IMG/VR virus record: IMGVR_UViG_3300027970_000018
DNA length: 20,000 bases
Strand: one strand, 5' to 3'
Origin: an uncultured virus (IMG/VR IMGVR_UViG_3300027970_000018)
Lineage: Duplodnaviria > Heunggongvirae > Uroviricota > Caudoviricetes
Shown: piece after piece, positions 1-20,000 of the stretch
How positions within the stretch are numbered: position 1 is the stretch's first letter
Layout of the letters: each line of letters opens with the position of its first letter
Notes under the pieces: generated by a model
What the model saw: only the letters and a program-made list of their open reading frames with translations
The model's database searches: none
What the model was told of the DNA's origin: nothing
Program-made: the position numbers and the translations under genes

Positions 1-140
1 CTAAAGATAAAAATGATTTTTACATAAGATATCTGCGAACTGGGATTTTGATACAAAATAATATAAAAGAAATGCTTATAAACTTTTTAGGTGAAATTTC
101 CTCAGAATATGTAGTAGATGATATTAATACAAAACAATGA
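1..140 (+). CDS. 3' end of hypothetical protein (partial)
   Basis: Frame 3 is open from the window edge (KDKNDFYIRYLRTG...INTKQ) to TGA at 138-140, with an ATGA overlap into the next ORF. Confidence 0.55.
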   Translation, partial: KDKNDFYIRYLRTGILIQNNIKEMLINFLGEISSEYVVDDINTKQ

Positions 141-295
141 AAACCAAAGATTATGAAGTACTAAAGAAGTTAATAACTTCCCAAGAGTTACCTAATGACG
201 TAATATCAATTGCAAAGATAATCAAAGCAAAGAGTGTTAAGAAAGTCATTAAAATAGCAAACAAAGAATTAAAAAGTAAAAATAAAAACCAGTGA
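137..295 (+). CDS. small Lys-rich hypothetical protein (52 aa)
   Basis: Manually translated MKTKDYEVLKKLITSQELPND...NKNQ; start and stop overlap both neighbours, implying translational coupling. Confidence 0.55.
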   Translation: MKTKDYEVLKKLITSQELPNDVISIAKIIKAKSVKKVIKIANKELKSKNKNQ

Positions 296-1218
296 AAATG
301 AATACAGAAAGAGTAAACGAGCTTATAGAAAATTTCAGAGAGATTCGAGAAAATATAAAAAATAATCTTGAGGGTATTAAAAAAGAACTTGAGTTAGAAG
401 TTAATGAGTTTTTTAGCTTAGATATTACAAAAGAAATTATCGATAAGGCTAAAAACAGAAAAGATATATCACCACTTGTTAATTCATTGGCTGGTTGGGT
501 GAGGAGAGGAAAAAGAAATAAAAATGCCTTAGCAGATGAGTTTGTGTCCTCTTTGTTTGGAGACAAAGATATTCCGAAAGACCTACTAGATGACCTCAAA
601 GATTCTTATTTTAAGTATTTATCTAAAGTGGAAGATGACATATTTTTTCCGGATAAAAAAGAAGTTGAAATCCCATCTAAGACACAAACACTAAAACCCA
701 TTTCAAAAGGGGTGTGTTTTGATATGCACAGTTTTTGTAAGGAATACGAGACTCGGCAAAACAAAGAGGGAGATAAAAAAGAGTTTGAGTTCTATACAAC
801 CACAGGTACGGTAAAGACATTTATGGATGAATTAGGTCTACTTCCAATAGAAGGAAGTAAGTATAAAACAGCTTGTGAAAGCAAAAAAAGCCTTTTAGAA
901 TCTTTATTTGAAGAAAATATAATAAGATCACGTAGTTTTAGAAAAGAAAAGGTAGCTCTTATATCTGCAGTATTGGATACATGGAGAAATTATCATAAAA
1001 TGTATGTTGAGAATGTGGCCGAACCCTTTGAAGAAGCCTATGGTTTGTTACTAAACAAACACGGAAATCTGGAGGTTTTTAAACAAGAGGATATAGAAGT
1101 AGGCTATCCTTTTCCAACAAGGAGATTAGCAGAGATATTTTTAAGAAATAATAAAACCAACATACTATTATACACTAGAGAATTAACAGAATGGAAGAAG
1201 GAAAACAATTTGTCTTAA
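292..1218 (+). CDS. hypothetical protein (308 aa, N-terminal coiled coil)
   Basis: Long ORF in operon orientation with no recognised motif; the true start may be ATG 298. Confidence 0.8.
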   Translation: MKMNTERVNELIENFREIRENIKNNLEGIKKELELEVNEFFSLDITKEIIDKAKNRKDISPLVNSLAGWVRRGKRNKNALADEFVSSLFGDKDIPKDLLDDLKDSYFKYLSKVEDDIFFPDKKEVEIPSKTQTLKPISKGVCFDMHSFCKEYETRQNKEGDKKEFEFYTTTGTVKTFMDELGLLPIEGSKYKTACESKKSLLESLFEENIIRSRSFRKEKVALISAVLDTWRNYHKMYVENVAEPFEEAYGLLLNKHGNLEVFKQEDIEVGYPFPTRRLAEIFLRNNKTNILLYTRELTEWKKENNLS

Positions 1219-1484
1219 AATACAAGTCAGCAGTAGATACTGGTAGATTTGGTAAGGAGTTAAAACTTTCCCCTAAATTGAAAGTAGAAATATCAGAAGG
1301 TGGTATTAGTATAGAGACTATTGGTAAGACAGTGTCTATTACGTTGGATATTGATAACGAACCAATTTTTATCTGTATGTCCGAATCGGCATGGGAGAAA
1401 CACAATAACGGCTTCGATGTAAATTACCAAACAATTCAAAATCACATAAAAGAAATAAAAAATGGCAAAAGAAACAGAGGTTAA
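1191..1484 (+). CDS. hypothetical protein (97 aa)
   Basis: ORF overlaps both neighbours in the + operon. Confidence 0.7.
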   Translation: MEEGKQFVLKYKSAVDTGRFGKELKLSPKLKVEISEGGISIETIGKTVSITLDIDNEPIFICMSESAWEKHNNGFDVNYQTIQNHIKEIKNGKRNRG

Positions 1485-3321
1485 AAAAGATCCATTCTTA
1501 GCAGCTCTAGAGGAGGTAAATAAGAAGTATGGTGCAGAAGCAGTACAAGATGGCGATGCTATATTAGATATTGAGAGGCTAAAAACAGGATCACTTTCAC
1601 TTGACCTTGCTTTAGGTGGTGGTTGGGGGGTAGGTAAAATAGCAGAGCTTTATGGACCAGAATCTTGCTTGTCGGGTGATACTTTTATCCCCTACGCCTT
1701 GAGAAAAGAGTGTGGAAAACTTAGAAATAAAAAAGGTGGTACTTTAAAATTATTATTTGAGAAGTTTAATAAGTTGCCCCTAACAAAAAGACATGCTAGG
1801 TTTATAAATCCATTAGAAGGGGATTTTTACACAGTTCCTTGTATAAATGAAATGAATAGGATAGAACATATAAAAATAAAAGATGTTGTGTATAATGGAG
1901 TGAAACCTGTTTACAATGTACTGCTTGAAAATGGGATGCAGATAAAAGCTACGTTAGATCACAAGTTTTATGATGGAAGTAAATATACAATGTTAGGGAA
2001 CTTAGTTGCTGGAGATATTGTACACATACATAATAATACAACATTTAAAGTTGATGAGTATCAATATAAGTACTATAAAGAGGTTTTTGTAAAGTACCAT
2101 CCATCTTGGAAACAGAAAATTGTAAATGGTTGCACATATTATAGAAACCATGTATCGAGAGCTATATTTGAAGCAAACATGAATGGTTATGATTATAAGG
2201 ACTTTGTGAAATTACTTAACAGTGGTCCAAGCGAAGAGGCTTCAAAATTACTTACAATACCCGAAAAACATCATATACACCACATTGATGAGGACATCAC
2301 AAATAATTCACTAGAAAATTTATGTTTAATATCTTCTTCTGACCACGGTAAAATACACGCTAACGAAAGGCACAATAACCTGAGATTTATATCTGTCCCA
2401 AAACAAATAGTTTCTATTGATTACGTAGGGGAAGAAGAAGTTTTTGATATAAAATGCGAAGACCCTTACCACAATTATGTAGCAAATGGTTTTATTGTCC
2501 ATAATTGCGGTAAAACAACTTTGTGTATAAGCTCTGCAGTTGAAGCCCAAAAGGCATTTCCAGATAAAAAAGTATTGATTATAGATGCGGAACACGCACT
2601 TGACAGAAGATATTGCAAGAACTTGGGATTAGATATGAAAAATGTAGTGATTTCTCAACCAGATAATGGTGAGCAAGGGTTAGAGATTTTAGAGACATTT
2701 ATTTCATCTGGCAGAATTAGTATTGCAATTATAGACTCAATAGCTGCATTAACACCAAAGTCAGAGATTGAAGGTGAGATGGGTGATTCTCAAATGGGGA
2801 AACACGCAAGACTTATGTCTCAAGCTATGCGAAAATTAACTGGTATTGCAAATAAGACAAAAACAACTCTTTTGTTTACAAACCAATTACGTTCTAAGCT
2901 TGGTGTTATGTTTGGAAACCCAGAGACAACAACCGGTGGGAACGCAATGAAGTTTTACGCATCTACACGAGTTGATATGAGAAAAAAGCAAGGTGATAAA
3001 GTTGATGAAGTAGTTCAGAATATAGTTTCCTCTTGTAAAGTAGTTAAAAACAAGTTAGCACCACCTTTTCAAAAATGTGAATTTACGATTGAGTTTGGAG
3101 AAGGTATTGATAAGGCAAGTGAGATTCTTACACTTGGAGTTGCAACAAGACTTATAGAGAGAGGCGGATCATGGTTCTCTTACCAAGGAGTTAAGATTGG
3201 AAATGGCATCACAGCAACAAAAGATATCCTAAGAGACAACCCACAGTTAATGGAAGAAATTGAAGATATAATCAGAAAAAACATAAGCGTATATGACGAC
3301 ATCGAACAAATTGCCGAATAA
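1462..3321 (+). CDS. recA: RecA recombinase, intein-containing (339 aa after splicing)
   Basis: TGSLSLDLALGGG, ELYGPES//CGKTT (split Walker A), IDAEHALD, SQPDNGEQGLEI, IIDSIAALTPKSEIEGEMGDS, ARLMSQAMRKL, NQLR, FGNPETTTGGNAMKFYAS, KVVKNKLAPPF. Confidence 0.98.
   Translation: MAKETEVKKDPFLAALEEVNKKYGAEAVQDGDAILDIERLKTGSLSLDLALGGGWGVGKIAELYGPESCLSGDTFIPYALRKECGKLRNKKGGTLKLLFEKFNKLPLTKRHARFINPLEGDFYTVPCINEMNRIEHIKIKDVVYNGVKPVYNVLLENGMQIKATLDHKFYDGSKYTMLGNLVAGDIVHIHNNTTFKVDEYQYKYYKEVFVKYHPSWKQKIVNGCTYYRNHVSRAIFEANMNGYDYKDFVKLLNSGPSEEASKLLTIPEKHHIHHIDEDITNNSLENLCLISSSDHGKIHANERHNNLRFISVPKQIVSIDYVGEEEVFDIKCEDPYHNYVANGFIVHNCGKTTLCISSAVEAQKAFPDKKVLIIDAEHALDRRYCKNLGLDMKNVVISQPDNGEQGLEILETFISSGRISIAIIDSIAALTPKSEIEGEMGDSQMGKHARLMSQAMRKLTGIANKTKTTLLFTNQLRSKLGVMFGNPETTTGGNAMKFYASTRVDMRKKQGDKVDEVVQNIVSSCKVVKNKLAPPFQKCEFTIEFGEGIDKASEILTLGVATRLIERGGSWFSYQGVKIGNGITATKDILRDNPQLMEEIEDIIRKNISVYDDIEQIAE
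1666..2505 (+). mobile_element. intein (280 aa) with HNH homing endonuclease domain in the RecA P-loop
   Basis: Block A CLSGDT, block B IKATLDHKF (TxxH), block F VFDIKCEDPYHNYVANG, block G FIVHN followed by Cys+1. Internal HHIDEDITNNSLENL...HGKIH is an HNH motif. Confidence 0.95.
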
Positions 3322-3505
3322 CGACATCGAAGAGATGAGAAGAGTACTCCGAACAGTTAAAAGTGATTCGGAGTTGGCTACCAACAATGATGCTATTTAT
3401 CAGCAACAGCTTAAAGCAGAAGTTGATAAAAAGATAACTAAAGGCTGGAAACCGAGAAGAATAAAGAGATACATGCTCGAAAACTATGGAATCGAATTAA
3501 AATGA
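3293..3505 (+). CDS. hypothetical protein (70 aa)
   Basis: Overlaps the end of recA and is ATGA-coupled to the next ORF. Confidence 0.65.
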   Translation: MTTSNKLPNNDIEEMRRVLRTVKSDSELATNNDAIYQQQLKAEVDKKITKGWKPRRIKRYMLENYGIELK

Positions 3506-3789
3506 ATTTCCTTGTTGTTTGTATTAACGCTAAGAAGCGTCCAGCAGATTTTCCAGTTGATAAGTGGATTATGGAAGAAGAAATTTACACCGTAGTTGAA
3601 AGATTAGAAATGGTCCGCCAAAATATGGCGATAGGATATGTTTTGAAAGAGATTGATTTATCAAGCGTCAAAAACTACAAGGCATTCCACTCCAAACGTT
3701 TTCGACTTGCAACCAAGGTAGATTTAGAACTCCACAATTTGAGAGCAGAAATAATTGAAGAACAGAACCAAATACCAGAATTAGCATGA
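3502..3789 (+). CDS. hypothetical phage protein (95 aa)
   Basis: Coupled ORF (ATGA at both ends); VVCIN...YTV...Y.L.EI...F.S.RF pattern. Confidence 0.75.
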   Translation: MNFLVVCINAKKRPADFPVDKWIMEEEIYTVVERLEMVRQNMAIGYVLKEIDLSSVKNYKAFHSKRFRLATKVDLELHNLRAEIIEEQNQIPELA

Positions 3790-3935
3790 AACATTTTCAA
3801 GTACACGTTACGTACAAAATAGGTGGTCCGAGATCACAAACCCTACTTGGGTTCATTCAGAAGAATGAACCAACCGCTGATGAGATTGAGAAAGCAATTA
3901 AAGAGCAACAAGGTGTTGCTGAACTGACTTTTTAA
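3786..3935 (+). CDS. small hypothetical protein (49 aa)
   Basis: Manually translated MKHFQVHVTYKIGGPRSQ...AELTF; ATGA overlap with the upstream gene and fills the gap. Confidence 0.55.
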   Translation: MKHFQVHVTYKIGGPRSQTLLGFIQKNEPTADEIEKAIKEQQGVAELTF

Positions 3936-3962
3936 GTTACACAATTAAAGTTCTTTCTTAAA

Positions 3963-4289
3963 ATGACAAAAGAAGAAGTTACATCAAAATTCAAGTTAGT
4001 ATCAAACTCTAAACTATTCGGTTCAGAAGTAAAACCTGAGTACTATGTATTCGGATGCGCTTGTGGACACAGAGTAATTAGTTTGTTGAATATCTACGGA
4101 GCTATACCATTTTTTGTTGACTGCGAGAAGTGTGGAAATTTTATGAATCGCATTTACGATTTTGACGACAATCAAACACCATCCACGCATAAATGGTTTG
4201 TACCAACACTCGAAGAAGTTCTACAAACAAAAGATGAGAATCAAGTAGCTTTCTATTTAGACTTTGGACTAAAATTAAAACCACTATGA
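3963..4289 (+). CDS. putative zinc-ribbon protein (108 aa)
   Basis: CACGH...CEKCG pair of Cys motifs. Confidence 0.7.
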   Translation: MTKEEVTSKFKLVSNSKLFGSEVKPEYYVFGCACGHRVISLLNIYGAIPFFVDCEKCGNFMNRIYDFDDNQTPSTHKWFVPTLEEVLQTKDENQVAFYLDFGLKLKPL

Positions 4290-4783
4290 TAAAATATTTA
4301 ATTGGGATTGATCCAGGATTAACTGGAGGAATATCTGTGCTCGACTCAGAGACAAATGAAGTGACAACTTACGCAATTCCACGAGTTGGTAAAAACGATG
4401 TAAATGGACCAGAACTTTTGGAGATACTAAAAAAGTACTCGTCCGAAAAACACCTTGTAGCTATCGAAGACGTACACTCCATATTTGGTTCGTCTGCATC
4501 CTCTAACTTTACATTTGGAAGAGTACTAGGTACACTCGAAGGGTTGATAGTAGGTGCTGAATTATCTTGGATAAAAGTGCAACCAAAAGCTTGGCAAAAA
4601 GTCGCTTGGAATGGAATACCAGTCTTGTTCGATGCTAAAGGAAAGAAGAACACTAAAGGAATGTCTTTCCTTGCAATTACCAGGCTGTTCCCAAAACAAA
4701 AATTCCTCAAAACAAAAGATGGAATTATTGATGCAGCACTTATAGCGTTTTATTTAAAAATTACGTATGCTACAAACTATTAG
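4286..4783 (+). CDS. RuvC-like Holliday junction resolvase
   Basis: LIGIDPGLTGGI, VAIEDV, F.FG...G, V.P..WQK and DGIIDAALIA match phage RuvC/RNase H-fold catalytic motifs. Confidence 0.88.
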   Translation: MIKYLIGIDPGLTGGISVLDSETNEVTTYAIPRVGKNDVNGPELLEILKKYSSEKHLVAIEDVHSIFGSSASSNFTFGRVLGTLEGLIVGAELSWIKVQPKAWQKVAWNGIPVLFDAKGKKNTKGMSFLAITRLFPKQKFLKTKDGIIDAALIAFYLKITYATNY

Positions 4784-4907
4784 ATTGCTCCGCAAGCCAT
4801 TATTATTCACAATGTACCTACTAGCATTAATTGGTTTGAACCTCGGATACCCATTCAAAGTTCGCAGAGTAGCACAAGGAACAACTTTTATCGAGATAAT
4901 GGGGTAA
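4767..4907 (+). CDS. small putative membrane protein (46 aa)
   Basis: Manually translated MLQTIRLLRKPLLFTMYLLALIGLNLGYPFKVRR...; one hydrophobic stretch. Confidence 0.4.
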   Translation: MLQTIRLLRKPLLFTMYLLALIGLNLGYPFKVRRVAQGTTFIEIMG

Positions 4908-4944
4908 AAAATTAAAAATAATATCAATTTTTATAAAAAAGTTG

Positions 4945-4974
4945 TTGGTTATTTAAAATATAGTATTAGTTTTG
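4945..4974 (+). promoter_or_regulatory. Bacteroidota sigmaA-type promoter (-33/-7)
   Basis: TTG (4945-47), 19 nt, TAGTTTTG (4967-74), upstream of ATG 5002. Confidence 0.7.
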
Positions 4975-5001
4975 TTGAAAATTTTAATTAATAAATAAGT
5001 T

Positions 5002-5700
5002 ATGGGAGCAAATAATGCAAGCAGAGAGAACATGAGATTCTTTCGTATCGTGGCAAAAGCTGACAAAGCAGATCAAGCTGGAAGAAGAGCTATCTGTGAA
5101 GTTACAAAAGGTGCAGACGGAAAGTATGTCGCATCAGAGTGGTTTAACAACATTACAGGTTGGATTACCAAATTAGGACAAAAAGAGTTTGAATGGGAAG
5201 GGAAGAAAAGTAAAATCCTTGTTATTCAATTAACAGATTCAGACGGTATCTGTCAAATCGAGGCTTCATTATCTGGACCATTTTTTGCAATTATCAATAG
5301 TTTGATTGGTGCAGATTTAACAAGAGAAGTTGAAATCAGTGCTTGGATCAAAGACGAAAAGTATGTTAATGCATCTTTAAAATATGCAGATGGTGATAAG
5401 TGTGAGTGGGCTATCCCAGTAGAAGACCAACCAAAACCAGTTGAGTATAAAAAACCAAGTGGTGAAATGGATAAAGATTTCACAAACGTTAAAGAGTTTT
5501 GGTCTAACCAGTTTTTAGCTTTAGCATCAAAAGCTACAAAAAGTAATTTTACTGGCACAGTGGCATCAACCCCTCAAGCACCAATTATGGAAGTGGAAGC
5601 TCCAGTTAATGCACCAGCACAGGAAGCAAATACAACTCAGAAGGCAGCACCAGTTAAAGCACCGGCTGTAGAGGAGGTTGATGATTATTTACCCTTCTAA
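5002..5700 (+). CDS. putative single-stranded DNA-binding protein
   Basis: Beta-rich N-terminal domain, Pro/Ala-rich linker and acidic tail ending EEVDDYLPF (SSB C-terminal-like); next to recA and the resolvase. Confidence 0.6.
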   Translation: MGANNASRENMRFFRIVAKADKADQAGRRAICEVTKGADGKYVASEWFNNITGWITKLGQKEFEWEGKKSKILVIQLTDSDGICQIEASLSGPFFAIINSLIGADLTREVEISAWIKDEKYVNASLKYADGDKCEWAIPVEDQPKPVEYKKPSGEMDKDFTNVKEFWSNQFLALASKATKSNFTGTVASTPQAPIMEVEAPVNAPAQEANTTQKAAPVKAPAVEEVDDYLPF

Positions 5701-5718
5701 CTAAATAACAATTTTCAC

Positions 5719-6114
5719 ATGAATGTGATTGGAAAAAGTGAAGTATTTTGTTTCCCAAAATTAAAAATAAAAAGTGTTGTTGGAAAAATAGATACAGGTG
5801 CATTTGGTACATCTATTAGAGCAGGGGGCATAAAAGAGAAAAACAAAAAGCTTTATTTTTGGGTAGGTAATAGGACAAACACTTTTGTATACTCTGATTA
5901 CAAGATGGTGAAGGTTAAGAGTTCTTTTGGACACATTCAAAAAAGATACACAATAAAAATAGAAATTTCATTGGGAGATAGCAAGTATAACATTCATGTG
6001 ATGCTTTCTGATAGAAGTAAAATGCCTTTTAAATACTTAATTGGTAGAAACTTCCTTAAAAAGTCTGGGTATATTGTTGATGTATCAAAACAATTTTTAA
6101 TTTCAAATAAATAA
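5719..6114 (+). CDS. retropepsin-like aspartic protease (RimK-associated 'ATP-dependent Zn protease' family)
   Basis: KIDTGA catalytic motif, VKSSFG...RY, LSDRSKM.F..LIGRNFL, VDVS. Confidence 0.85.
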   Translation: MNVIGKSEVFCFPKLKIKSVVGKIDTGAFGTSIRAGGIKEKNKKLYFWVGNRTNTFVYSDYKMVKVKSSFGHIQKRYTIKIEISLGDSKYNIHVMLSDRSKMPFKYLIGRNFLKKSGYIVDVSKQFLISNK

Positions 6115-6117
6115 AAT

Positions 6118-6609
6118 ATGACAGGAAATTCGTGGTTTACCGTAAAAGTAAAATACACACAGCAAAAAGAGGATGGAACCTTTGCTCGTGTAACAGAGCC
6201 ATACTTATTAGCCGCAGTGTCATTCACGGATGCAGAAGCAAGAATATATGAGGAGTTAGGTTCAATAATACGTGGTGAGTTTATAGTGCTTTCAATTGCA
6301 CGTACAGATATCCACGACATCTTTGCTTATGATGATGCAGATGTTTGGTACAAAGGTGTTGTATCCTACGACAAAATGGACGATGAGGGAGGTAAGAAAA
6401 AGAAGATCAAAAACACATTCTTGATTGGTGCTGAATCAGTAAAAGAAGCGAATGATCGTCTTGTAGAAAGTCTATCTACTCTTATGATTGATTACACTAT
6501 TGATGGAGTTGTAGTAACACCTTTAGTAGATATCTTTCCTTTTGTAGATGTAGAGGATACGAACCAAATTACCCAGTCGGGTGATGGTGTTGATGAAGAA
6601 CAAGATTAA
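6118..6609 (+). CDS. DUF4494-like protein (Bacteroidota family)
   Basis: WF.VKVKY...VTEPYLLAAVSFTDAEARIYEE...WYK..V...D...GKKKK...L..A pattern; acidic tail. Confidence 0.8.
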   Translation: MTGNSWFTVKVKYTQQKEDGTFARVTEPYLLAAVSFTDAEARIYEELGSIIRGEFIVLSIARTDIHDIFAYDDADVWYKGVVSYDKMDDEGGKKKKIKNTFLIGAESVKEANDRLVESLSTLMIDYTIDGVVVTPLVDIFPFVDVEDTNQITQSGDGVDEEQD

Positions 6610-6618
6610 AAACCTATA

Positions 6619-6649
6619 AGTACTGTCGGTAAGCCGACAATACTTTCTT
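6619..6649 (+). terminator. hairpin / possible intrinsic terminator upstream of groES
   Basis: AGTACTGTCGG-TAAG-CCGACAATACT followed by TTCTT. Confidence 0.5.
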
Positions 6650-6660
6650 AACACATTAAA

Positions 6661-7245
6661 ATGAAAGTACTTAGAAGTAATATTTTAATAGAAGAGATCG
6701 GATTTGCACCAACAAAAGCGGATGTAAAAGGTTTATCAAGTACTTGGGGAATATCTGAAAAATTGAGGGGACATAATCCAATGAGAATTGGTGTTGTAAA
6801 ATCAATCGGTACAGATACAACCACGGTACAAGAAGGAGATGTAGTTTTATATCTATCTCTGTATTTGATGAATATACCTGGACTTCCAATAAATCAGTTT
6901 ATGATTTACGAAGGAAATTTGATGGGCAGATACGATGGAATCGAAAACAAAAACGGAACAATAAAAATGGAAAGAATTAAATTTAATCCTTTATCGGATA
7001 GAATTATCGTCAAAAAAGACGAACCTGCTAAACCTAAAAATGGTTTGGTAGTTACGGATACAACAACCAGCAACAAACCACTTACAGGGACAATTGTAAG
7101 AGTAAGTGATTTCCAAGTAGAAAGACCGCTTGTAGTAAAAGAAGGTGATAGAATTATGTTCACTAAAGTTGCAGGAATGGAAATCGAGTTGGAAGAAGGT
7201 AAGTTCATAATCATGCGTGAAGCAGATGTAATCGGAATTTTTTAA
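6661..7245 (+). CDS. groES: co-chaperonin with two tandem GroES/Cpn10 domains
   Basis: C-terminal domain: FNPLSDRIIVK...NGLVV...GTIVRV...VKEGDRIMF.KVAGMEIELEEGKFIIMREADVIG. Divergent N-terminal domain: MKVLRSNILIE...GVVKSIG...VQEGDVVLY...IYEGNLMG. Confidence 0.9.
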   Translation: MKVLRSNILIEEIGFAPTKADVKGLSSTWGISEKLRGHNPMRIGVVKSIGTDTTTVQEGDVVLYLSLYLMNIPGLPINQFMIYEGNLMGRYDGIENKNGTIKMERIKFNPLSDRIIVKKDEPAKPKNGLVVTDTTTSNKPLTGTIVRVSDFQVERPLVVKEGDRIMFTKVAGMEIELEEGKFIIMREADVIGIF

Positions 7246-8853
<1,608 letters not shown>

Positions 8854-15097: not shown

Positions 15098-15556
15098 TAC
15101 ATAATATTTTAATAACATTATTGGAATATTTGTTATGGAAAAATGAAAAATCCCACTCAACTTAATGGATGGGTTTTACGGCACATTTTATAAAAATTTT
15201 TCTACCCCCATGCCCGAAACGAACCAAATTATTCGTGTGTTTTTTGGGTATACCCCACCCCGCTGATAAGATGGTTCGCCCCAAAACAACCATAGAAAAA
15301 ATCTATAAAGACTAAAATTACATAGACATTATCTAAGTGAAAAACAATTAATTCAAATCCAAAACACTTAATATAACACCAACAAGGAGATATATAGTTA
15401 AGAGAGAGAACTAAAGGGAGTAAGTTAGGGAAGGTAGAGTAATAGATACAGTCAATCGGGGAACTCTTTAATTTCGGGGTATCTAATTTTTTGGAGAAGC
15501 CTAAAAACAATTGGGGCTGAAACAATACCTACTTAAATTTTTTGGGGCACAATAAA

Positions 15557-15581: not shown

Positions 15582-15726
15582 TGGGGCAAAAAGTTGTAAG
15601 CGTAAATACGAGCGACACCACCTACCCATTCACTCTCCCCCCTTATTGGGGTTTCTTTGGGTGTACCCCCTACCAGTTAGAAAGTAAAATTTTCAAAAAA
15701 TGGAACTAAAAAAAATACGAATACAC

Positions 15727-15932
15727 AAAAAAGATATTTTTTAGCACCCAATTAAAGAACATAAACAACAACTATATTAAGATATTAATTTCGGAACCAT
15801 TAGAACAAACAGTTTTTAGCCCTACCTTTGAAAAATTCGGAACCATTAGAACAAACAGTTTTTAGCCCTACCTTTGAAAAATTCGGAACCAAAGGAAAAA
15901 AGATATTTTTTAGCACCCAATTAAAGAACATA
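15727..15932. repeat. nested direct repeats: a 37-bp pair flanking a 46-bp tandem repeat
   Basis: AAAAAAGATATTTTTTAGCACCCAATTAAAGAACATA at 15727-63 and 15896-932. TTCGGAACCATTAGAACAAACAGTTTTTAGCCCTACCTTTGAAAAA starts at 15790 and 15836, with a partial copy at 15882. Confidence 0.92.
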
Positions 15933-16155
15933 GACAAAAGCTATATTTAACCTATTAACTATAAATAATATTTATAATCTACTGATTTAAAGAAATATAA
16001 ACTAATTAATCTTATAAGTATCTGATTTTAAAGCACTTATAACATTTAACATTATTTAACATTTATAATCCAAAGTTAATGCCTACTTTTACAAACGAGA
16101 GGCAACGAAGCCAATTATATAACTATTTTTATTTAATTATTTAATTTTATTTATT

Positions 16156-16887
16156 ATGAAAAATTTAGCAATTTTTGCAGGGCTTAACAGTAGCCAAAAA
16201 ATTCAAGTCCTAAAAAAAATAGGCATCAACGCAACGTCAAAAGACATTGAAGCTAAACAGAATCTTTTTAATAATTTCACATTTGAGGCACAAAGCAAGG
16301 CTTTAAAAAGTCTAGACATTTCAAAGGGCTTTGACAACGAATTATTGAAACTTGAAAAACAAAATGCAAAAATAGAACATAAGGGCATATATTCAGTATT
16401 CAAGGCTATTCAAAATAACACTACTTTGTTAAAAAGTGTTAAGGGTAAAAAATTCGAGCCTACCAATTTGATTGGCTCAATGAATGTGAACCAATTCATA
16501 GGGCAACTTAAAAAAGTGGGCTTCTATTCCATTGACATCCTTTACACTTTTGGTAAAGTGTACGAGTTAGCGAACGATGGCGACAAAGTGTTAATTTCAG
16601 AGCGTGGGCAAAAAATAAATGATCTGTTAATGGAATACAAAAAAGAAATTTTAACACAAAGTGAAGCCCTTACAAAGTTCCTAGAACTTGTTAGCCCTTA
16701 CAAGGTAAAAATTAAAAAAATTAAAGGGCAAAATGACATAATTACAAAAACGTTAATTTTCAACGAAAGTTCTGAAAAATTTTTATTAGAGTTTTGCCCT
16801 GAAGTTGCGAAATTTTACGGCATTGAAAAACAAGTTGAAACGGTAGTTAATGAGTTAGAGTTAGTGGATAGTTCATCAGTAGCTTAA
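16156..16887 (+). CDS. hypothetical Lys-rich protein (243 aa), first gene after the non-coding region
   Basis: Long ORF with an AT-rich leader and a downstream terminator. Confidence 0.8.
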   Translation: MKNLAIFAGLNSSQKIQVLKKIGINATSKDIEAKQNLFNNFTFEAQSKALKSLDISKGFDNELLKLEKQNAKIEHKGIYSVFKAIQNNTTLLKSVKGKKFEPTNLIGSMNVNQFIGQLKKVGFYSIDILYTFGKVYELANDGDKVLISERGQKINDLLMEYKKEILTQSEALTKFLELVSPYKVKIKKIKGQNDIITKTLIFNESSEKFLLEFCPEVAKFYGIEKQVETVVNELELVDSSSVA

Positions 16888-16898
16888 TAGGTTACTCA

Positions 16899-16928
16899 AA
16901 AGGGCTTGAAATATAGCCCTTTATTTTC
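16899..16928 (+). terminator. intrinsic terminator
   Basis: AAAGGGCT-TGAAATAT-AGCCCTTT followed by a T-rich tract. Confidence 0.7.
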
Positions 16929-17159
16929 GTTTTAAGGCATTCAAAAGTGAATGCAATTAAATAATCCTTATACAACATTGAGACGTTTATAAGGGGCAGA
17001 TTTTAGGTAGTGGCAGGAGGCTACAGTTAGTAGAACCACTATCGCATAAAAAACAAGGTAATTGAAACAGTTAGTTAAATTACCACAAAAAAAGTTTTTG
17101 TAAAGTTGTTTTTTATGCTCTTCTTTGAAATATAGATACAAGAACTGAAGCTTAAAAAT

Positions 17160-17825
17160 CTGACGCACATAAGACCGTAGGGCGGGCGTATTTTGGAGTT
17201 TGTTATAACTTGTATGCTTTAATGTAACTAATTAGATTTAGTTTTATTCACTTAAAAGAATGTTTTTTGAGTTGTGGTAACTTGTGTAAAAGAAATTTTA
17301 CAAGCAATGTTTTTGCTTTGCCTCAACATTTGTGTATAAAAAGAAACTTAGTCAAGTGCCGTGAAATTTGAGAGAACACTTTTGTTACTACCTTGAAAAA
17401 GTAGTGCAATATATTGTTTTATACCATGGGAGTAGTAGACTAACTTAGAGTTCTATTAATGGGAGTATTGTGCCATTATGTGAATGTGTTGTCTAGCTTC
17501 GTTTGTGGTATATGATGTTTAGCTCAGGCGGTTGGTTGATACGAACCAATTGTTATTGGGCGGGGTGTGCCTGTTGGTTACTGAATAACATAAGGTAATC
17601 ATTAGATTGGGGGCCGCTATCAAAAGCATATTCCAGCCTTGATTGGGATGCAAAAATCAAAAAGAATTTATTCCCACCACTCAACAATAATGGTTTGTTG
17701 TATGGGTGTGCTATATCCAATCCGCAAGTTCCAGCAGTGGAAACATGTAATGCAATGGTTTGTGGATTGGTGTGTAGTGTACCCATGTAGATTGATTTCG
17801 GTGGTGGGATCTAACTAATCCCTAT
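17160..17825 (+). ncRNA. candidate large structured non-coding RNA (boundaries approximate)
   Basis: No credible ORF; many nested helices with G-U pairs and GAAA tetraloops (see findings). Confidence 0.6.
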
Positions 17826-17848
17826 ATGGGTGTAGTGTAACTTTTCGC

Positions 17849-17985
17849 TATACCTTTGGCAAAGGTATAATAATTTTCTGAGATATAAAATAACCCCATT
17901 GAATAAAATTCGTGGGGTTTGTTGTATTCAGTAAAATATGGGGGTGTGAAATTTCTTTATACTACCTTTCGCCAAAGGTAGTATA
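17849..17985. promoter_or_regulatory. two related TACCTTT..AAAGGTA palindromes flanking a hairpin
   Basis: TATACCTTTG-G-CAAAGGTATA (~17849-69), AACCCCA..TGGGGTT (~17892-919), TATACTACCTTT-CGCC-AAAGGTAGTATA (~17958-85). Confidence 0.6.
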
Positions 17986-18017
17986 TTTATTTTTAAAAAC
18001 CAAATAAATTTTTAACT

Positions 18018-18161
18018 ATGGAACTAGAATTGGACCAAATTTGTAACCTATTGTTTTTAGGTGTAGCAGTTGTTGCTGTGTATTTATCCTGGAGATTAGA
18101 TGTAAATCGCTCAGCCGAGAACTCTCGTGAGAGATTTAAGCGTGAATTGAAGAAGAAATAA
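18018..18161 (+). CDS. small single-pass membrane protein (47 aa)
   Basis: Manually translated MELELDQICNLLFLGVAVVAVYLSWRLDVNRSAENSRERFKRELKKK; AT-rich leader; hairpin after the stop. Confidence 0.6.
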   Translation: MELELDQICNLLFLGVAVVAVYLSWRLDVNRSAENSRERFKRELKKK

Positions 18162-18628: not shown

Positions 18629-18927
18629 AATGTTGTCTCATAGACGAAGAATGTTACACAAAATCTAAAAAGTATGTACGGAGTAGTAGAAAAAAGCGTG
18701 AATGAACTCACAATATTTAGACAGCAAAGGGATTTAGCAGGTCTTTTGGAGGTAAGTACGGCAACAATCCGTAGAAAACATCACCTACCTTGTTGGGAAA
18801 CGGAAAAATATATAATTTATAATCCCGTCAATGTGTACCTTAAAGCAAGAGATTTCAATAAAATAGGCAATTTAAAGGCTAAAATGTGGTAAATGTCGTC
18901 TCATAGACGAAAAATGTTACACAAAAT
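18629..18927 (+). repeat. 36-bp direct repeat pair (34/36 identical)
   Basis: AATGTTGTCTCATAGACGAAGAATGTTACACAAAAT (18629-64) and AATGTCGTCTCATAGACGAAAAATGTTACACAAAAT (18892-927). Confidence 0.9.
18674..18892 (+). CDS. small helix-turn-helix-like protein (72 aa)
   Basis: IFRQQRDLAGLLEVSTATIRRK fits an HTH pattern. Confidence 0.6.
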   Translation: MYGVVEKSVNELTIFRQQRDLAGLLEVSTATIRRKHHLPCWETEKYIIYNPVNVYLKARDFNKIGNLKAKMW

Positions 18928-18956: not shown

Positions 18957-19403
18957 ATGGCTAAAGGAACAACAGTTTACAAGGACTTCATGTCTTTGGG
19001 ACAAGTGGAAACACTAAAAAACAACAGTACTAAGGTACGATGGCAAGAAAGTGGGGGTGATTTCTCGGATGGTATTAGGGTTGGGATTCCCGCAAAGGTA
19101 AAAAATGGTTCGATAAAACCATTAAGTGAAAAAGAATTAAAGCTTGAAGTACAAAGAGTTAGAAACAAAAAGTTCAATACAACTCATATAGAGCTAAAAG
19201 CATACCCAAGAACATTCCAAACATCAATAGGAGAGTACCTAATAACAGACGCAACAAAAGTAATAAACAACTTCCTATACCCCAACGAAATCCAAAGACA
19301 TGGGGAAGTAAAAGCATTCTATTATAGCAAAAATGAAGAAGAATGTAGCAAAGTTTTTAGAGCTACAACCGAGATGGAGTGGGTGATTGAGCATAATGGT
19401 TAG
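18957..19403 (+). CDS. hypothetical protein (148 aa)
   Basis: ORF with an A-rich leader. Confidence 0.7.
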   Translation: MAKGTTVYKDFMSLGQVETLKNNSTKVRWQESGGDFSDGIRVGIPAKVKNGSIKPLSEKELKLEVQRVRNKKFNTTHIELKAYPRTFQTSIGEYLITDATKVINNFLYPNEIQRHGEVKAFYYSKNEEECSKVFRATTEMEWVIEHNG

Positions 19404-19799
19404 ATTGGTAGTGTACCCCAAACCCAATTGGGAGAATGGCGGATAAAACGCTTACATTTTTTCAGAAAAATCCCCAACCCCAAATCAAAGGGGGTACGCT
19501 TTTCACATCCCCAAAGGTGTGTAACCCTATGCATTACTCTAATCTTATGGTTCGTTGTGTACTCTTAGTCTGTTTACTTAATAGATTTCTTTTATGTCTG
19601 TAAGGACTGATATAGAGTAAATTTATGTTTGTTTTCTTGTGTTTTGATTTTCGCACTATTCGTACGGGGGTTATGTTCATAGAAAATACAGACCAATTGT
19701 TGGTGGGTACTACGTTTCAGGCGGCAGGGTGTAGTACCCCAATTTTTTATGCCCAAAAGTCAATTAAAACAAATCAATTAATACTTAAAATTTAAAATT

Positions 19800-20000
19800 A
19801 TGAAAACAATTTACCTACATGACAGAAATTGGAACAAAATCCAATTTGAATATTCTGATATTTCAGAATTAAAAGAAGAATTAGAAAGTAGAGGTATTCG
19901 TATTGGAGACGGTGCAAGTATTGGAATCAATGTAAGTATTGGAATCAATGCAAGTATTGGAATCGATGCAAGTATTGGAGACCGTGCAAGTATTGGATAC
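19800..20000 (+). CDS. hexapeptide-repeat (left-handed beta-helix) protein, 5' part
   Basis: Manually translated MKTIYLHDRNWNKIQFEYSDISELKEELESRGIR-IGDGAS-IGINVS-IGINAS-IGIDAS-IGDRAS-IGY; 18-bp DNA repeat from ~19900; runs off the window. Confidence 0.8.
   Translation, partial: MKTIYLHDRNWNKIQFEYSDISELKEELESRGIRIGDGASIGINVSIGINASIGIDASIGDRASIGY

What the first reader, a model, noticed from the sequence alone, without database searches (positions are those of the whole stretch)
17160..17825. Candidate large, ornately folded phage ncRNA in the early-like region
Seen: ~670 nt with no credible ORF in an otherwise dense genome, G/T-skewed on +, folding almost end to end. The 3' domain has TCCCACCAC(17672-80)/GTGGTGGGA(17801-09) enclosing CAACAA/TTGTTG, then ATGGGTGTGCTA(17702-13)/TAGTGTACCCAT(17775-86; 3 G-U) and CCAATCCGCAA(17717-27)/TTGTGGATTGG(17760-70), capped by GTG-GAAA-CAT. 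Upstream helices: TGTAAAA-GAAA-TTTTACA (17285-302) inside GGTAA/TTGCC and AATGTT/AACATT; AAGTG/CACTT; TACTAC-CTTGAAAAA-GTAGTG; ATACCA/TGGTAT enclosing TAGAC/GTCTA and TAATGG/CCATTA; CAGGC/GCCTG enclosing GGTTGGTT-GATACG-AACCAATT; AAGG/CCTT; TTGATT/AATCAA. Possible pseudoknots are GGCGG(~17559)/CCGCT(~17614) and TTAGTC(17348)/GACTAA(17438). G-U wobbles and GNRA loops work only on the + strand, which points to selection on RNA. Known: phages encode large RNAs of unknown function (GOLLD, ROOL). Inference: a divergent member of one of these or a new class; I could not assign it.
Basis: partly seen in the sequence, partly recalled or inferred. Interest (0 to 1): 0.85.

Follow-up and report, generated by a model that had tools for sequence, protein, structure and literature searches.

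The report
Conserved structured noncoding RNA, lake phage
A gene-free stretch of about 400-600 bases in an uncultivated freshwater phage folds into unusually stable hairpins that related phages preserve better than the neighbouring protein gene, so it is probably a new noncoding RNA whose job is still unknown.

Summary
The ORF-free gap is real, under table 11 and three stop-reassigned codes. Its 3' two-thirds (17416-17810) carry a strand-specific folding signal. The Y-shaped 3' domain (17672-17809) is the most stable local structure in the whole 20 kb. No Rfam family matches, GOLLD and ROOL included.

Two diverged relatives seen in other metagenomes keep the element at about 90-96% nucleotide identity. 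Laid pieces of flanking coding DNA are about 81-82% identical, and the neighbouring protein family is only 61-78% identical. Substitutions in the long hairpin preserve pairing: 1 broken pair against 5.4 expected (P=0.003), including one C-G to U-A double change. All 14 changes at paired sites are transitions; 5 of 9 at unpaired sites are transversions.

- The 5' third (17184-17415) is conserved in sequence but shows no folding signal.
- The predicted outer closing helix is broken in a relative.
- The proposed pseudoknots are untested.

Most likely this is a new, narrowly distributed class of + strand phage ncRNA with a modular build. Its function is inferred, not shown.

The parts
16899..16931 (+). 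Intrinsic-terminator-like hairpin plus T-run ending the upstream 243-aa gene. It sets the element apart as its own unit.
   Evidence: stem 16899-16922, tail ATTTTCGTTT.
17213..17350 (+). Conserved 5' block. It is highly conserved in sequence and contains a 7-bp GAAA-capped hairpin (17285-17302). It has no significant folding signal.
   Evidence: X14 differs at 14 of 138 letters. X13 has 11 other letters (9 of them listed) plus indels over 17122-17434, and no listed X13 change in 17255-17304; z=-0.64 for 17184-17415 and -1.70 for 17256-17332.
17351..17415 (+). Variable joint between the blocks. It holds the hairpin TACTAC-CTTGAAAAA-GTAGTG.
   Evidence: X14 replaces 17351-17357 with 55 other letters. 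X13 lacks 27 letters spread over 17372-17410.
17416..17516 (+). Middle hairpin H1 (36 pairs, 8 G-U).
   Evidence: z=-3.01 on +, -3.36 on -; pair probabilities 0.9-0.99 in the core. X14 is 95.8% identical over 17358-17522.
17520..17563 (+). Middle hairpin H2 (16 pairs, 5 G-U). It is strongly strand- and RNA-specific.
   Evidence: z=-4.66 on +, -0.53 on -; as DNA only -1.61..
17562..17636 (+). Middle hairpin H3 (weak signal).
   Evidence: z=-1.57 on +, +0.02 on -. In X13 the stretch 17434-17653 is replaced by 187 letters that do not align.
17672..17809 (+). Y-shaped 3' domain. P1 is 17672-81/17800-09. The P2 hairpin is 17682-17700. The P3 hairpin is 17701-17787, with 37 pairs and a GAAA cap. The domain has 55 pairs, 10 of them G-U.
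   Evidence: most stable local fold of the window. (pair-preserving substitutions, with the C-G to U-A double change at 17711/17777). In X14 the alignable part starts exactly at 17672 and ends at 17819.
17849..17985 (+). Three terminator-like hairpins downstream: 17849-17869, 17892-17919 and 17958-17985. They are candidate 3' ends of the RNA. The first and third are related palindromic modules.
   Evidence: third hairpin plus T-run; z=-6.21 on + and -4.93 on - for 17801-18000. X13 shows only 3 listed changes in 17849-17963, while X14 diverges here.

Best explanation
The gap encodes a noncoding RNA read from the + strand, the same direction as the flanking genes. It is at least about 400 nt (17416-17810) and probably about 600 nt (from about 17213-17250 to a terminator hairpin at 17849-17985). 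It belongs to a small lineage of uncultivated freshwater and groundwater phages, probably of Bacteroidota hosts.

The RNA is modular:
- a 5' segment conserved in sequence but weakly structured;
- a variable joint;
- a middle set of hairpins that one relative has replaced;
- a very stable Y-shaped 3' domain whose long G-U-rich hairpin is held by selection on pairing.

My best guess at mechanism: it is a free-standing, trans-acting RNA made during infection. The 3' domain acts as a stable scaffold or protein-binding and nuclease-resistant module. The conserved 5' segment acts as the recognition surface for a conserved partner.

Shown here: no coding capacity, strand-specific folding, conservation above the flanks, and pair-preserving substitutions in the 3' domain.
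Inferred: transcription, the ends of the RNA, that the blocks form one molecule, action in trans, and any partner.
For: NO CODING CAPACITY
- No credible ORF under four codes.
- The 77-aa minus-strand ORF has only its own 100% cluster among 5.8 billion clusters. The 13 listed X13 changes inside it fall 7/4/2 on codon positions 1/2/3 (my count).

FOLDING
- 3' domain z=-7.05 on + against -4.75 on -. Core 17184-17810 z=-5.20 on + against -3.40 on -.
- H2 z=-4.66 on + against -0.53 on -. As DNA it is only -1.61.
- 17672-17810 on + is the top local fold of 20 kb.
- In the four hairpin domains, 30 of 130 pairs are G-U. None of the five 1x1 mismatches is A.C, the type that would be G-U on the other strand.

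CONSERVATION (other letters / aligned length)
- X14 element: 14/138, 7/165, 11/143 and 11/148.
- X14 flanking coding pieces: 19/106 and 37/206.
- X13: 78/416 in the upstream gene against 11/313 in 17122-17434.
- The neighbouring protein has relatives at 78, 63, 63 and 61% identity. The 61% relative sits on a 1678-nt contig, the same length as the X14 contig that carries the element. That these are the same contig is my inference.

SUBSTITUTIONS
- In the core, 13 of 14 changes at positions paired with P>=0.5 keep a standard pair.
- The P3 hairpin has 1 broken pair against 5.38+-1.52 in 20000 random sets, P=0.0027.
- The double change at 17711/17777 turns C-G into U-A.
- At paired sites there are 14 transitions and 0 transversions. 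At unpaired sites there are 4 and 5. Fisher P about 0.004 (my arithmetic).

SETTING
- A terminator lies upstream and three hairpins lie downstream.
Against: - No transcript data of any kind.
- Only two diverged relatives, seen as variant tables that were cut to 40 rows. Changes found only in X14 are hidden. The X13 list is complete for 17697-17963 only by my reading of how the table was cut.
- The 5' third has no folding signal.
- One pair (17715-17773) is broken in X13.
- An energy test is weak. The natural variant hairpin folds at -36.4 against -40.0 for the window, and 6.4% of 2000 random substitution sets fold as well.
- Two of the 13 'kept' pairs (17347-17647 and 17351-17643) have partners inside the part that X13 replaced. 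X14 inserts 55 letters at 17351-57, so that long-range helix is doubtful.
- High identity could partly reflect recent exchange of a module. L022 shows a 16-SNP patch at 16716-16881 right next to an almost invariant element.
- 200-nt windows in coding DNA of this phage reach z=-3.96, so z-scores near -3 alone mean little.
- No promoter was found.
Confidence: 0.55

Rival explanations
1. The gap is a composite, not one large RNA. The conserved 5' block (17213-17350) is a DNA-level promoter or operator, or a tiny gene. Only the hairpins downstream (17416-17810) are RNA, as one or several smaller RNAs of about 100-400 nt.
For: - The 5' block has no folding signal yet is the best-conserved part.
- It holds an inverted repeat, TGTAAAA/TTTTACA, of the kind a dimeric DNA-binding protein would use.
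- Both relatives have their indels right after it: 17351-57 in X14 and 17372-17410 in X13.
- A -7-like TAGATTTA sits at 17233 with TTG 20 nt upstream.
- In the frame 17228-17371 (TTG at 17267, 34 codons), 4 of 6 X13 changes are synonymous third-position changes and 2 are conservative (R>K, V>I). The X14 replacement adds 48 nt net, a multiple of three (my reading).
Against: - 4 of 6 changes at third positions has P about 0.10 for one frame, before allowing for six frames.
- The frame has no ATG.
- No predicted protein shares words with the 47-codon frame.
- 96% nucleotide identity is far above what a coding constraint gives in the neighbouring gene.
- The promoter match is imperfect, 5 of 6 specified bases.
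Confidence: 0.25
2. It is a cis-acting leader of the downstream + strand genes, from 18018 on. It could be a processive antitermination or RNA-processing element that lets RNA polymerase read through the three hairpins at 17849-17985. It could also be an RNase III-type processing site.
For: - It has the same orientation as the downstream genes.
- Three terminator-like hairpins lie between it and the next gene, with only 33 nt left for a promoter.
- The long, nearly perfect 37-bp hairpin is the kind of substrate a double-strand RNase cuts (inference).
Against:
- No Rfam cis-regulatory family matches.
- In X14 the hairpin region 17820-17989 is not alignable although the element is kept.
Confidence: 0.12
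3. It works as DNA. It could be a single-strand hairpin signal for priming, replication or packaging next to the repeat-rich region 15700-16150, or protein-binding sites.
For: - Iteron-like direct repeats and very AT-rich DNA lie 1-1.5 kb upstream.
- The 3' domain also folds significantly as single-stranded DNA: z=-5.15 on + and -4.03 on -.
Against: - The strand asymmetry and the H2 signal appear with RNA parameters, not DNA parameters.
- 30 G-U pairs against 0 A.C mismatches.
- Terminators bracket the unit.
Confidence: 0.06
4. It is a highly diverged GOLLD or ROOL RNA.
For: - It is phage-borne, lake-derived and large.
- It has a conserved 3' part and a replaceable middle part. [quoted passage not shown]
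Against: - No match at gathering score or at E<=10 with lax filters.
- No tRNA in 20 kb.
- The fold looks like a row of hairpins rather than the multi-pseudoknot architecture described for those classes.
Confidence: 0.03

Closest known systems
[quoted passage not shown]
   Same: Large noncoding RNA carried by phages and first seen in lake metagenomes. It has a conserved 3' region with a less conserved rest, and its function is unknown (PMC12286853, passages).
   Different: No hit to any Rfam model. It is shorter, about 0.4-0.65 kb against often more than 800 nt. No tRNA neighbours. No shown pseudoknots. Oligomer formation is untested.
ROOL RNA (Rumen-Originating, Ornate, Large)
   Same: Phage and prophage RNA of roughly 0.6 kb, with an internal linker that lacks similarity across homologues (PMC12286853). 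Here 17434-17653 is replaced in relative X13.
   Different: No Rfam hit. No tRNA island. The predicted fold is a series of hairpins plus one three-way junction.
phi29-type packaging RNA (pRNA)
   Same: The 3' domain alone (138 nt) is a three-way junction whose 5' and 3' ends pair. This is a likeness of shape only, and the pRNA shape is recalled from memory.
   Different: No Rfam hit. The host phage is a large phage with RecA and GroEL, not a phi29-like one. The domain is embedded in a longer conserved unit.
Candidate structured RNAs of viruses and phages (Fremin et al. 2023, PMC10690425)
   Same: Same kind of object: a conserved intergenic phage region with pair-preserving change.
   Different: That survey clustered IMG/VR intergenic regions (passages read). 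In IMG/VR, three exact 20-23-mer scans taken from this element and two protein-based searches with its 243-aa neighbour found nothing. It is therefore unlikely to be in that set. I did not see its supplementary tables.

Membership tests
GOLLD | Match to the family's covariance model at or above the gathering score | tested here: not met
   0 families at gathering score in the window. Of the 10 weak hits at E<=10 in 16800-18100, none is a large-RNA family. That Rfam 15 holds a GOLLD model is from my knowledge.
GOLLD | Often next to tRNA genes or tRNA islands in phages and prophages | tested here: not met
   0 tRNA genes in the 20-kb window. The feature is taken from PMC12286853.
GOLLD | Length often above 800 nt, with a universally conserved 3' region | tested here: inconclusive
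   The conserved unit is about 600 nt (17213-17810). A conserved 3' domain exists but has no sequence likeness to the family.
GOLLD / ROOL | Homo-oligomeric RNA-only cage held by kissing loops and A-minor contacts | not testable with these tools
   This needs in vitro transcription and mass photometry or cryo-EM.
ROOL | Match to the family's covariance model | tested here: not met
Structured noncoding RNA (generic criteria) | No conserved ORF | tested here: met
   A 34-codon TTG frame in the 5' block remains a weak lead.
Structured noncoding RNA (generic criteria) | Folding energy beyond dinucleotide shuffles, specific to one strand | tested here: met
   Met for 17416-17810. Not met for 17184-17415.
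Structured noncoding RNA (generic criteria) | Covariation or pair-preserving substitution among homologues | tested here: inconclusive
   It is positive for the P3 hairpin: P=0.0027, with one double compensatory change. It comes from only one or two relatives and a cut variant table. No R-scape-grade alignment was possible.
Structured noncoding RNA (generic criteria) | A discrete transcript | not testable with these tools
   No RNA data could be laid on the stretch.
phi29 pRNA / processive antitermination RNAs (put, EAR) | Match to the Rfam model | tested here: not met
   That these families are in Rfam is from my knowledge.

The most novel reading that the evidence does not exclude
This is the founding member of a new class of large (about 0.6 kb) ornate phage RNA in freshwater Bacteroidota phages. 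Like GOLLD and ROOL it would have conserved end domains and a replaceable internal linker, and it would act as an RNA-only or RNA-protein assembly during infection.
Probability: 0.3. Interest if true: 0.75.

Novelty: new variant of a known kind. Interest (0 to 1): 0.6.

Why it matters
Large structured bacterial and phage RNAs outside the ribosome, RNase P and introns are few. The best known (GOLLD, ROOL, OLE) were recently shown to build RNA-only assemblies of unknown purpose (PMC12286853).

A further, unrelated large phage RNA would widen that small set. This one comes from a phage lineage with no cultured relative. It is kept at 90-96% identity while the neighbouring protein drifts to about 61%. 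It would also give a compact, very stable 138-nt domain that can be tested directly by structure probing, oligomer assays and pull-downs.

If only the hairpins turn out to be RNA, it is still a new phage small-RNA locus, though a more ordinary one.

Tried and rejected
HOMOLOGUE SEARCHES THAT FOUND NOTHING USEFUL
- blastn of 16890-18020 and megablast of the 20 kb against 50,697 phage records.
- IMG/VR: three exact 20-23-mers. Protein-based searches with the 243-aa neighbour, the 148-aa protein, GroEL and a 5-sequence alignment of the neighbour family.
- The 436-aa protein gave 21 IMG/VR loci. None shares any other window protein or any DNA likeness to the element.
- GTDB genomes: two patterns, 0 hits.
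- JGI metagenome contigs: one 20-mer found only two near-identical strains, at 98.75% and 99.7%, with a single SNP (17259 A>G) in the element.
- A covariance model of the 3' domain matched only the window and those two strains among 24 sources. It matched 0 of 12 whole IMG/VR records.

OTHER DEAD ENDS
- No whole genome is held for the window. The 97.7-kb contig behind L022 is not held.
- Expression: no RNA holder listed.
- Earlier findings of this scan: nothing by place, by sequence or by words.
- Neighbour protein function: no Pfam or PHROG family. The AlphaFold model has mean pLDDT 67. Foldseek against the PDB gave 0 matches at E<=0.001.
- No paralogue of the element in the window.
- The 'energy on the reference structure' column is invalid. 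The evaluator scored the broken A-C pair as if it were paired, so I dropped it.
- CRISPR-repeat mimic idea for 17271-17304. It came from a recalled likeness to Bacteroidota repeats. No CRISPR-DR family appeared and the 20-mer is in no GTDB genome. I set it aside as unsupported.
- Bacteroidota-type promoter TAnnTTTG. It occurs 35 times in the window against 30.3 expected. There is no exact copy in 16890-17450.
- The literature search for newly described large phage RNAs gave nothing closer than GOLLD and ROOL (listings and abstracts only, apart from the two papers read in passages).

Full report
CONTEXT

The window is phage DNA. It encodes:
- a RecA interrupted by an intein with an HNH nuclease (1462-3321);
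- a GroES-like and a GroEL-like protein (6661-7245 and 7249-8853);
- a DUF4494 protein and a zinc-protease-like protein.

Nothing in 50,697 phage records is alike at the DNA level. The nearest proteins are distant. GroEL is 46% identical to Bacteroides phages. The 436-aa protein matches 10 records at 28-38%, and 9 of them are Cellulophaga phages. None of 26 ORFs has a Shine-Dalgarno-like word upstream. Together these point to a Bacteroidota host. That is an inference.

The stretch is held in lake-water metagenomes. Two JGI contigs carry it at 98.75% and 99.7% identity.

THE OBSERVATION

The gap 16888-18017 has no ORF of 80 aa or more under table 11, TAG=Q or TGA=W. TAA=Q opens only frames that need 1-11 read-throughs. 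The small ORFs are not convincing:
- The 77-aa minus-strand ORF exists only as its own 100% cluster. The X13 changes in it fall 7/4/2 on codon positions 1/2/3 (my count).
- The 47-codon frame of the 5' block has no relative among predicted proteins.

G over C and T over A on the + strand is real.

IS IT MORE THAN CHANCE?

| Stretch | z on + | z on - |
|---|---|---|
| 17160-17825 | -4.31 | -1.74 |
| 3' domain 17672-17809 | -7.05 | -4.75 |
| 3' domain 17672-17809 (second run) | -6.53 | -4.96 |
| Middle 17416-17640 | -2.58 | -1.03 |
| 5' third 17184-17415 | -0.64 | -0.83 |
| H2 17520-17563 | -4.66 | -0.53 |

H2 as DNA scores only -1.61. A local-fold scan of all 20 kb on both strands puts 17672-17810 (+) first at -62.0 kcal/mol. 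Next come -47.7 for the adjacent hairpin cluster and -44.9 elsewhere.

Background 200-nt windows over 1-7700 have mean z of -0.56 (sd 1.1) and reach -3.96. So only the 3' domain and H2 stand clearly outside the background.

In the four hairpin domains, 30 of 130 pairs are G-U, and none of the five 1x1 mismatches is A.C. That asymmetry fits selection on the + strand.

RELATIVES

All collection scans gave only near-identical strains. Laying contigs of four runs showed two diverged relatives, X13 (aquatic) and X14 (groundwater).

| Relative | Region | Other letters / aligned length |
|---|---|---|
| X14 | flanking coding pieces | 19/106 and 37/206 |
| X14 | the element | 14/138, 7/165, 11/143, 11/148 |
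| X13 | upstream gene | 78/416 |
| X13 | 17122-17434 | 11/313, plus indels |
| X13 | 17653-18007 | 37/355 |

Only pieces at least 80% alike are laid, so the flank figures are upper bounds. The neighbouring 243-aa protein has relatives at 78, 63, 63 and 61% identity. The 61% one lies on a 1678-nt contig, the same length as the X14 contig that carries the element. That they are the same contig is my inference.

The alignable core runs from about 17213 to 17810-17819. In X14 it restarts exactly at the first base of helix P1 (17672). X13 replaces 17434-17653 with 187 letters that do not align and loses 27 letters in 17372-17410. X14 replaces 17351-57 with 55 letters. The build is therefore modular.

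SUBSTITUTION PATTERN

I predicted the structure from the window sequence alone and then mapped the listed changes onto it.
- In the core, 13 of 14 changes at positions paired with P>=0.5 keep a standard pair. One is a double change, 17711 C>T with 17777 G>A (C-G to U-A). The exception is 17773.
- All 14 are transitions. Of 9 changes at unpaired positions, 5 are transversions. Fisher P is about 0.004 (my arithmetic).
- For the long hairpin 17701-17787, 13 changes break 1 pair against 5.38+-1.52 in 20000 random sets matched for transitions and transversions (P=0.0027).

Limits of this evidence:
- The variant table was cut to 40 rows, and changes found only in X14 are not shown.
- I infer that the X13 list is complete for 17697-17963, because every shown row lies at least 45 letters from an aligned end.
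- Two 'kept' pairs have partners in the part that X13 replaced.
- The energy test is weak. 6.4% of 2000 random sets fold as well as the natural variant.
- One column of that test was invalid.

WHAT IS NOT SUPPORTED

- The 5' third is conserved but shows no folding signal.
- The outer helix 17176-80/17822-28 is broken at four positions in X13.
- The pseudoknots are untested.
- The long-range helix 17343-56/17638-50 is doubtful, given the X14 insertion.

A weak lead for a tiny ORF exists in the frame 17228-17371 (TTG at 17267, 34 codons). Four of six X13 changes are synonymous third-position changes and two are conservative. The X13 indels begin right after its stop codon. The X14 replacement adds 48 nt net. 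Chance gives about 0.10 for the codon-position pattern in one frame, before allowing for six frames, so I keep it as a rival and not as a finding.

High identity might also partly reflect module exchange. L022 carries a 16-SNP patch at 16716-16881 beside the invariant element.

KNOWN FAMILIES

No Rfam family reaches its gathering score in the window. At E<=10 in 16800-18100 there are 10 weak hits (best 22.3 bits against a gathering score of 90), none to a large RNA. There is no tRNA in the window.

GOLLD and ROOL are described as phage and prophage RNAs often near tRNA islands. [quoted passage not shown] Both form RNA-only cages (PMC12286853, passages read). The present element shares the setting and the modular pattern of conservation, but not sequence, model match or tRNA context. 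It is not a member of either family.

MECHANISM

I commit to a free-standing + strand ncRNA of at least about 400 nt, probably about 600 nt, bracketed by the upstream terminator (16899-16931) and one of three downstream hairpins (17849-17985).
- The Y-shaped 3' domain would be a stable scaffold or binding module.
- The conserved 5' segment would be the recognition surface.
- Confidence is 0.55 for a functional + strand structured RNA. Confidence is much lower for the trans-acting scaffold reading.

Rivals:
- a composite of a promoter, operator or tiny gene plus smaller hairpin RNAs (0.25);
- a cis-acting leader or processing site for the genes from 18018 on (0.12);
- a DNA-level hairpin signal near the repeat-rich region (0.06);
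- a diverged GOLLD or ROOL (0.03).

VERDICT

This is a real, conserved, strand-specific structured element, and a candidate new class with a narrow known distribution. The comparative support is promising but thin.

Noticed in passing
window 1462-3321 (+): RecA gene of 619 aa interrupted by an intein. Pfam finds the Intein_splicing domain and an HNH_3 nuclease between the RecA halves.
   Followed up: no
window 6661-8853 (+): Phage-borne GroES/GroEL pair. The GroES-like protein is 194 aa, with the Cpn10 domain only in residues 107-193, so it has an N-terminal extension of about 100 aa of unknown nature.
   Followed up: no
window 15727-15947: Repeat-rich, very AT-rich divergent intergenic region (GC 0.245 at 15800-16199). 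It holds a 52-nt repeat twice (94% alike, 169 nt apart) and a 46-nt unit in three tandem copies at 15787-15924. It looks like iterons or a regulatory hub, possibly an origin.
   Followed up: no
window 17824-17990: Two related modules, each with a palindrome (TATACCTTTGGCAAAGGTATA at 17849-69 and TATACTACCTTTCGCCAAAGGTAGTATA at 17958-85), flank a third hairpin at 17892-17919. The window 17801-18000 gives z=-6.21 on + and -4.93 on -. X13 shows only 3 listed changes in 17849-17963, while X14 is not alignable here. They may be terminators, or operators that overlap promoters.
   Followed up: partly
window 18629-18664 and 18892-18927: A 36-nt repeat (94% alike) sits directly after two consecutive small genes. 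It may be a processing or termination signal.
   Followed up: no
window 19900-19997: Four overlapping copies of a 44-nt unit with an 18-nt period, inside the ORF that runs off the window end. This points to a repeat protein with a 6-residue period.
   Followed up: no
window 16716-16881 against L022: A patch of 16 SNPs at the 3' end of the 243-aa gene in a strain that is otherwise about 99% identical, right beside the almost invariant element. It looks like a recombination mosaic.
   Followed up: no
window, 26 ORF starts: None of the 26 ORFs has AGGA, GGAG or GAGG in the 20 bases upstream. With the protein likeness to Cellulophaga, Flavobacterium and Bacteroides phages, this points to a Bacteroidota host.
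   Followed up: partly
window 19390-19533 (both strands) and 15186-15309 (-): Further stable local folds appear in the Lfold ranking: -44.7 and -42.4 kcal/mol at 19390-19533, and -37.7 at 15186-15309 on the minus strand. The window 15201-15400 gives z=-3.08 on the minus strand. They were not examined.
   Followed up: no
window 17228-17371 (+): A 47-codon open frame (TTG at 17267, giving a Cys-rich basic peptide of 34 aa) lies in the conserved 5' block. The few changes in relatives are mostly synonymous. No protein relative was found.
   Followed up: partly
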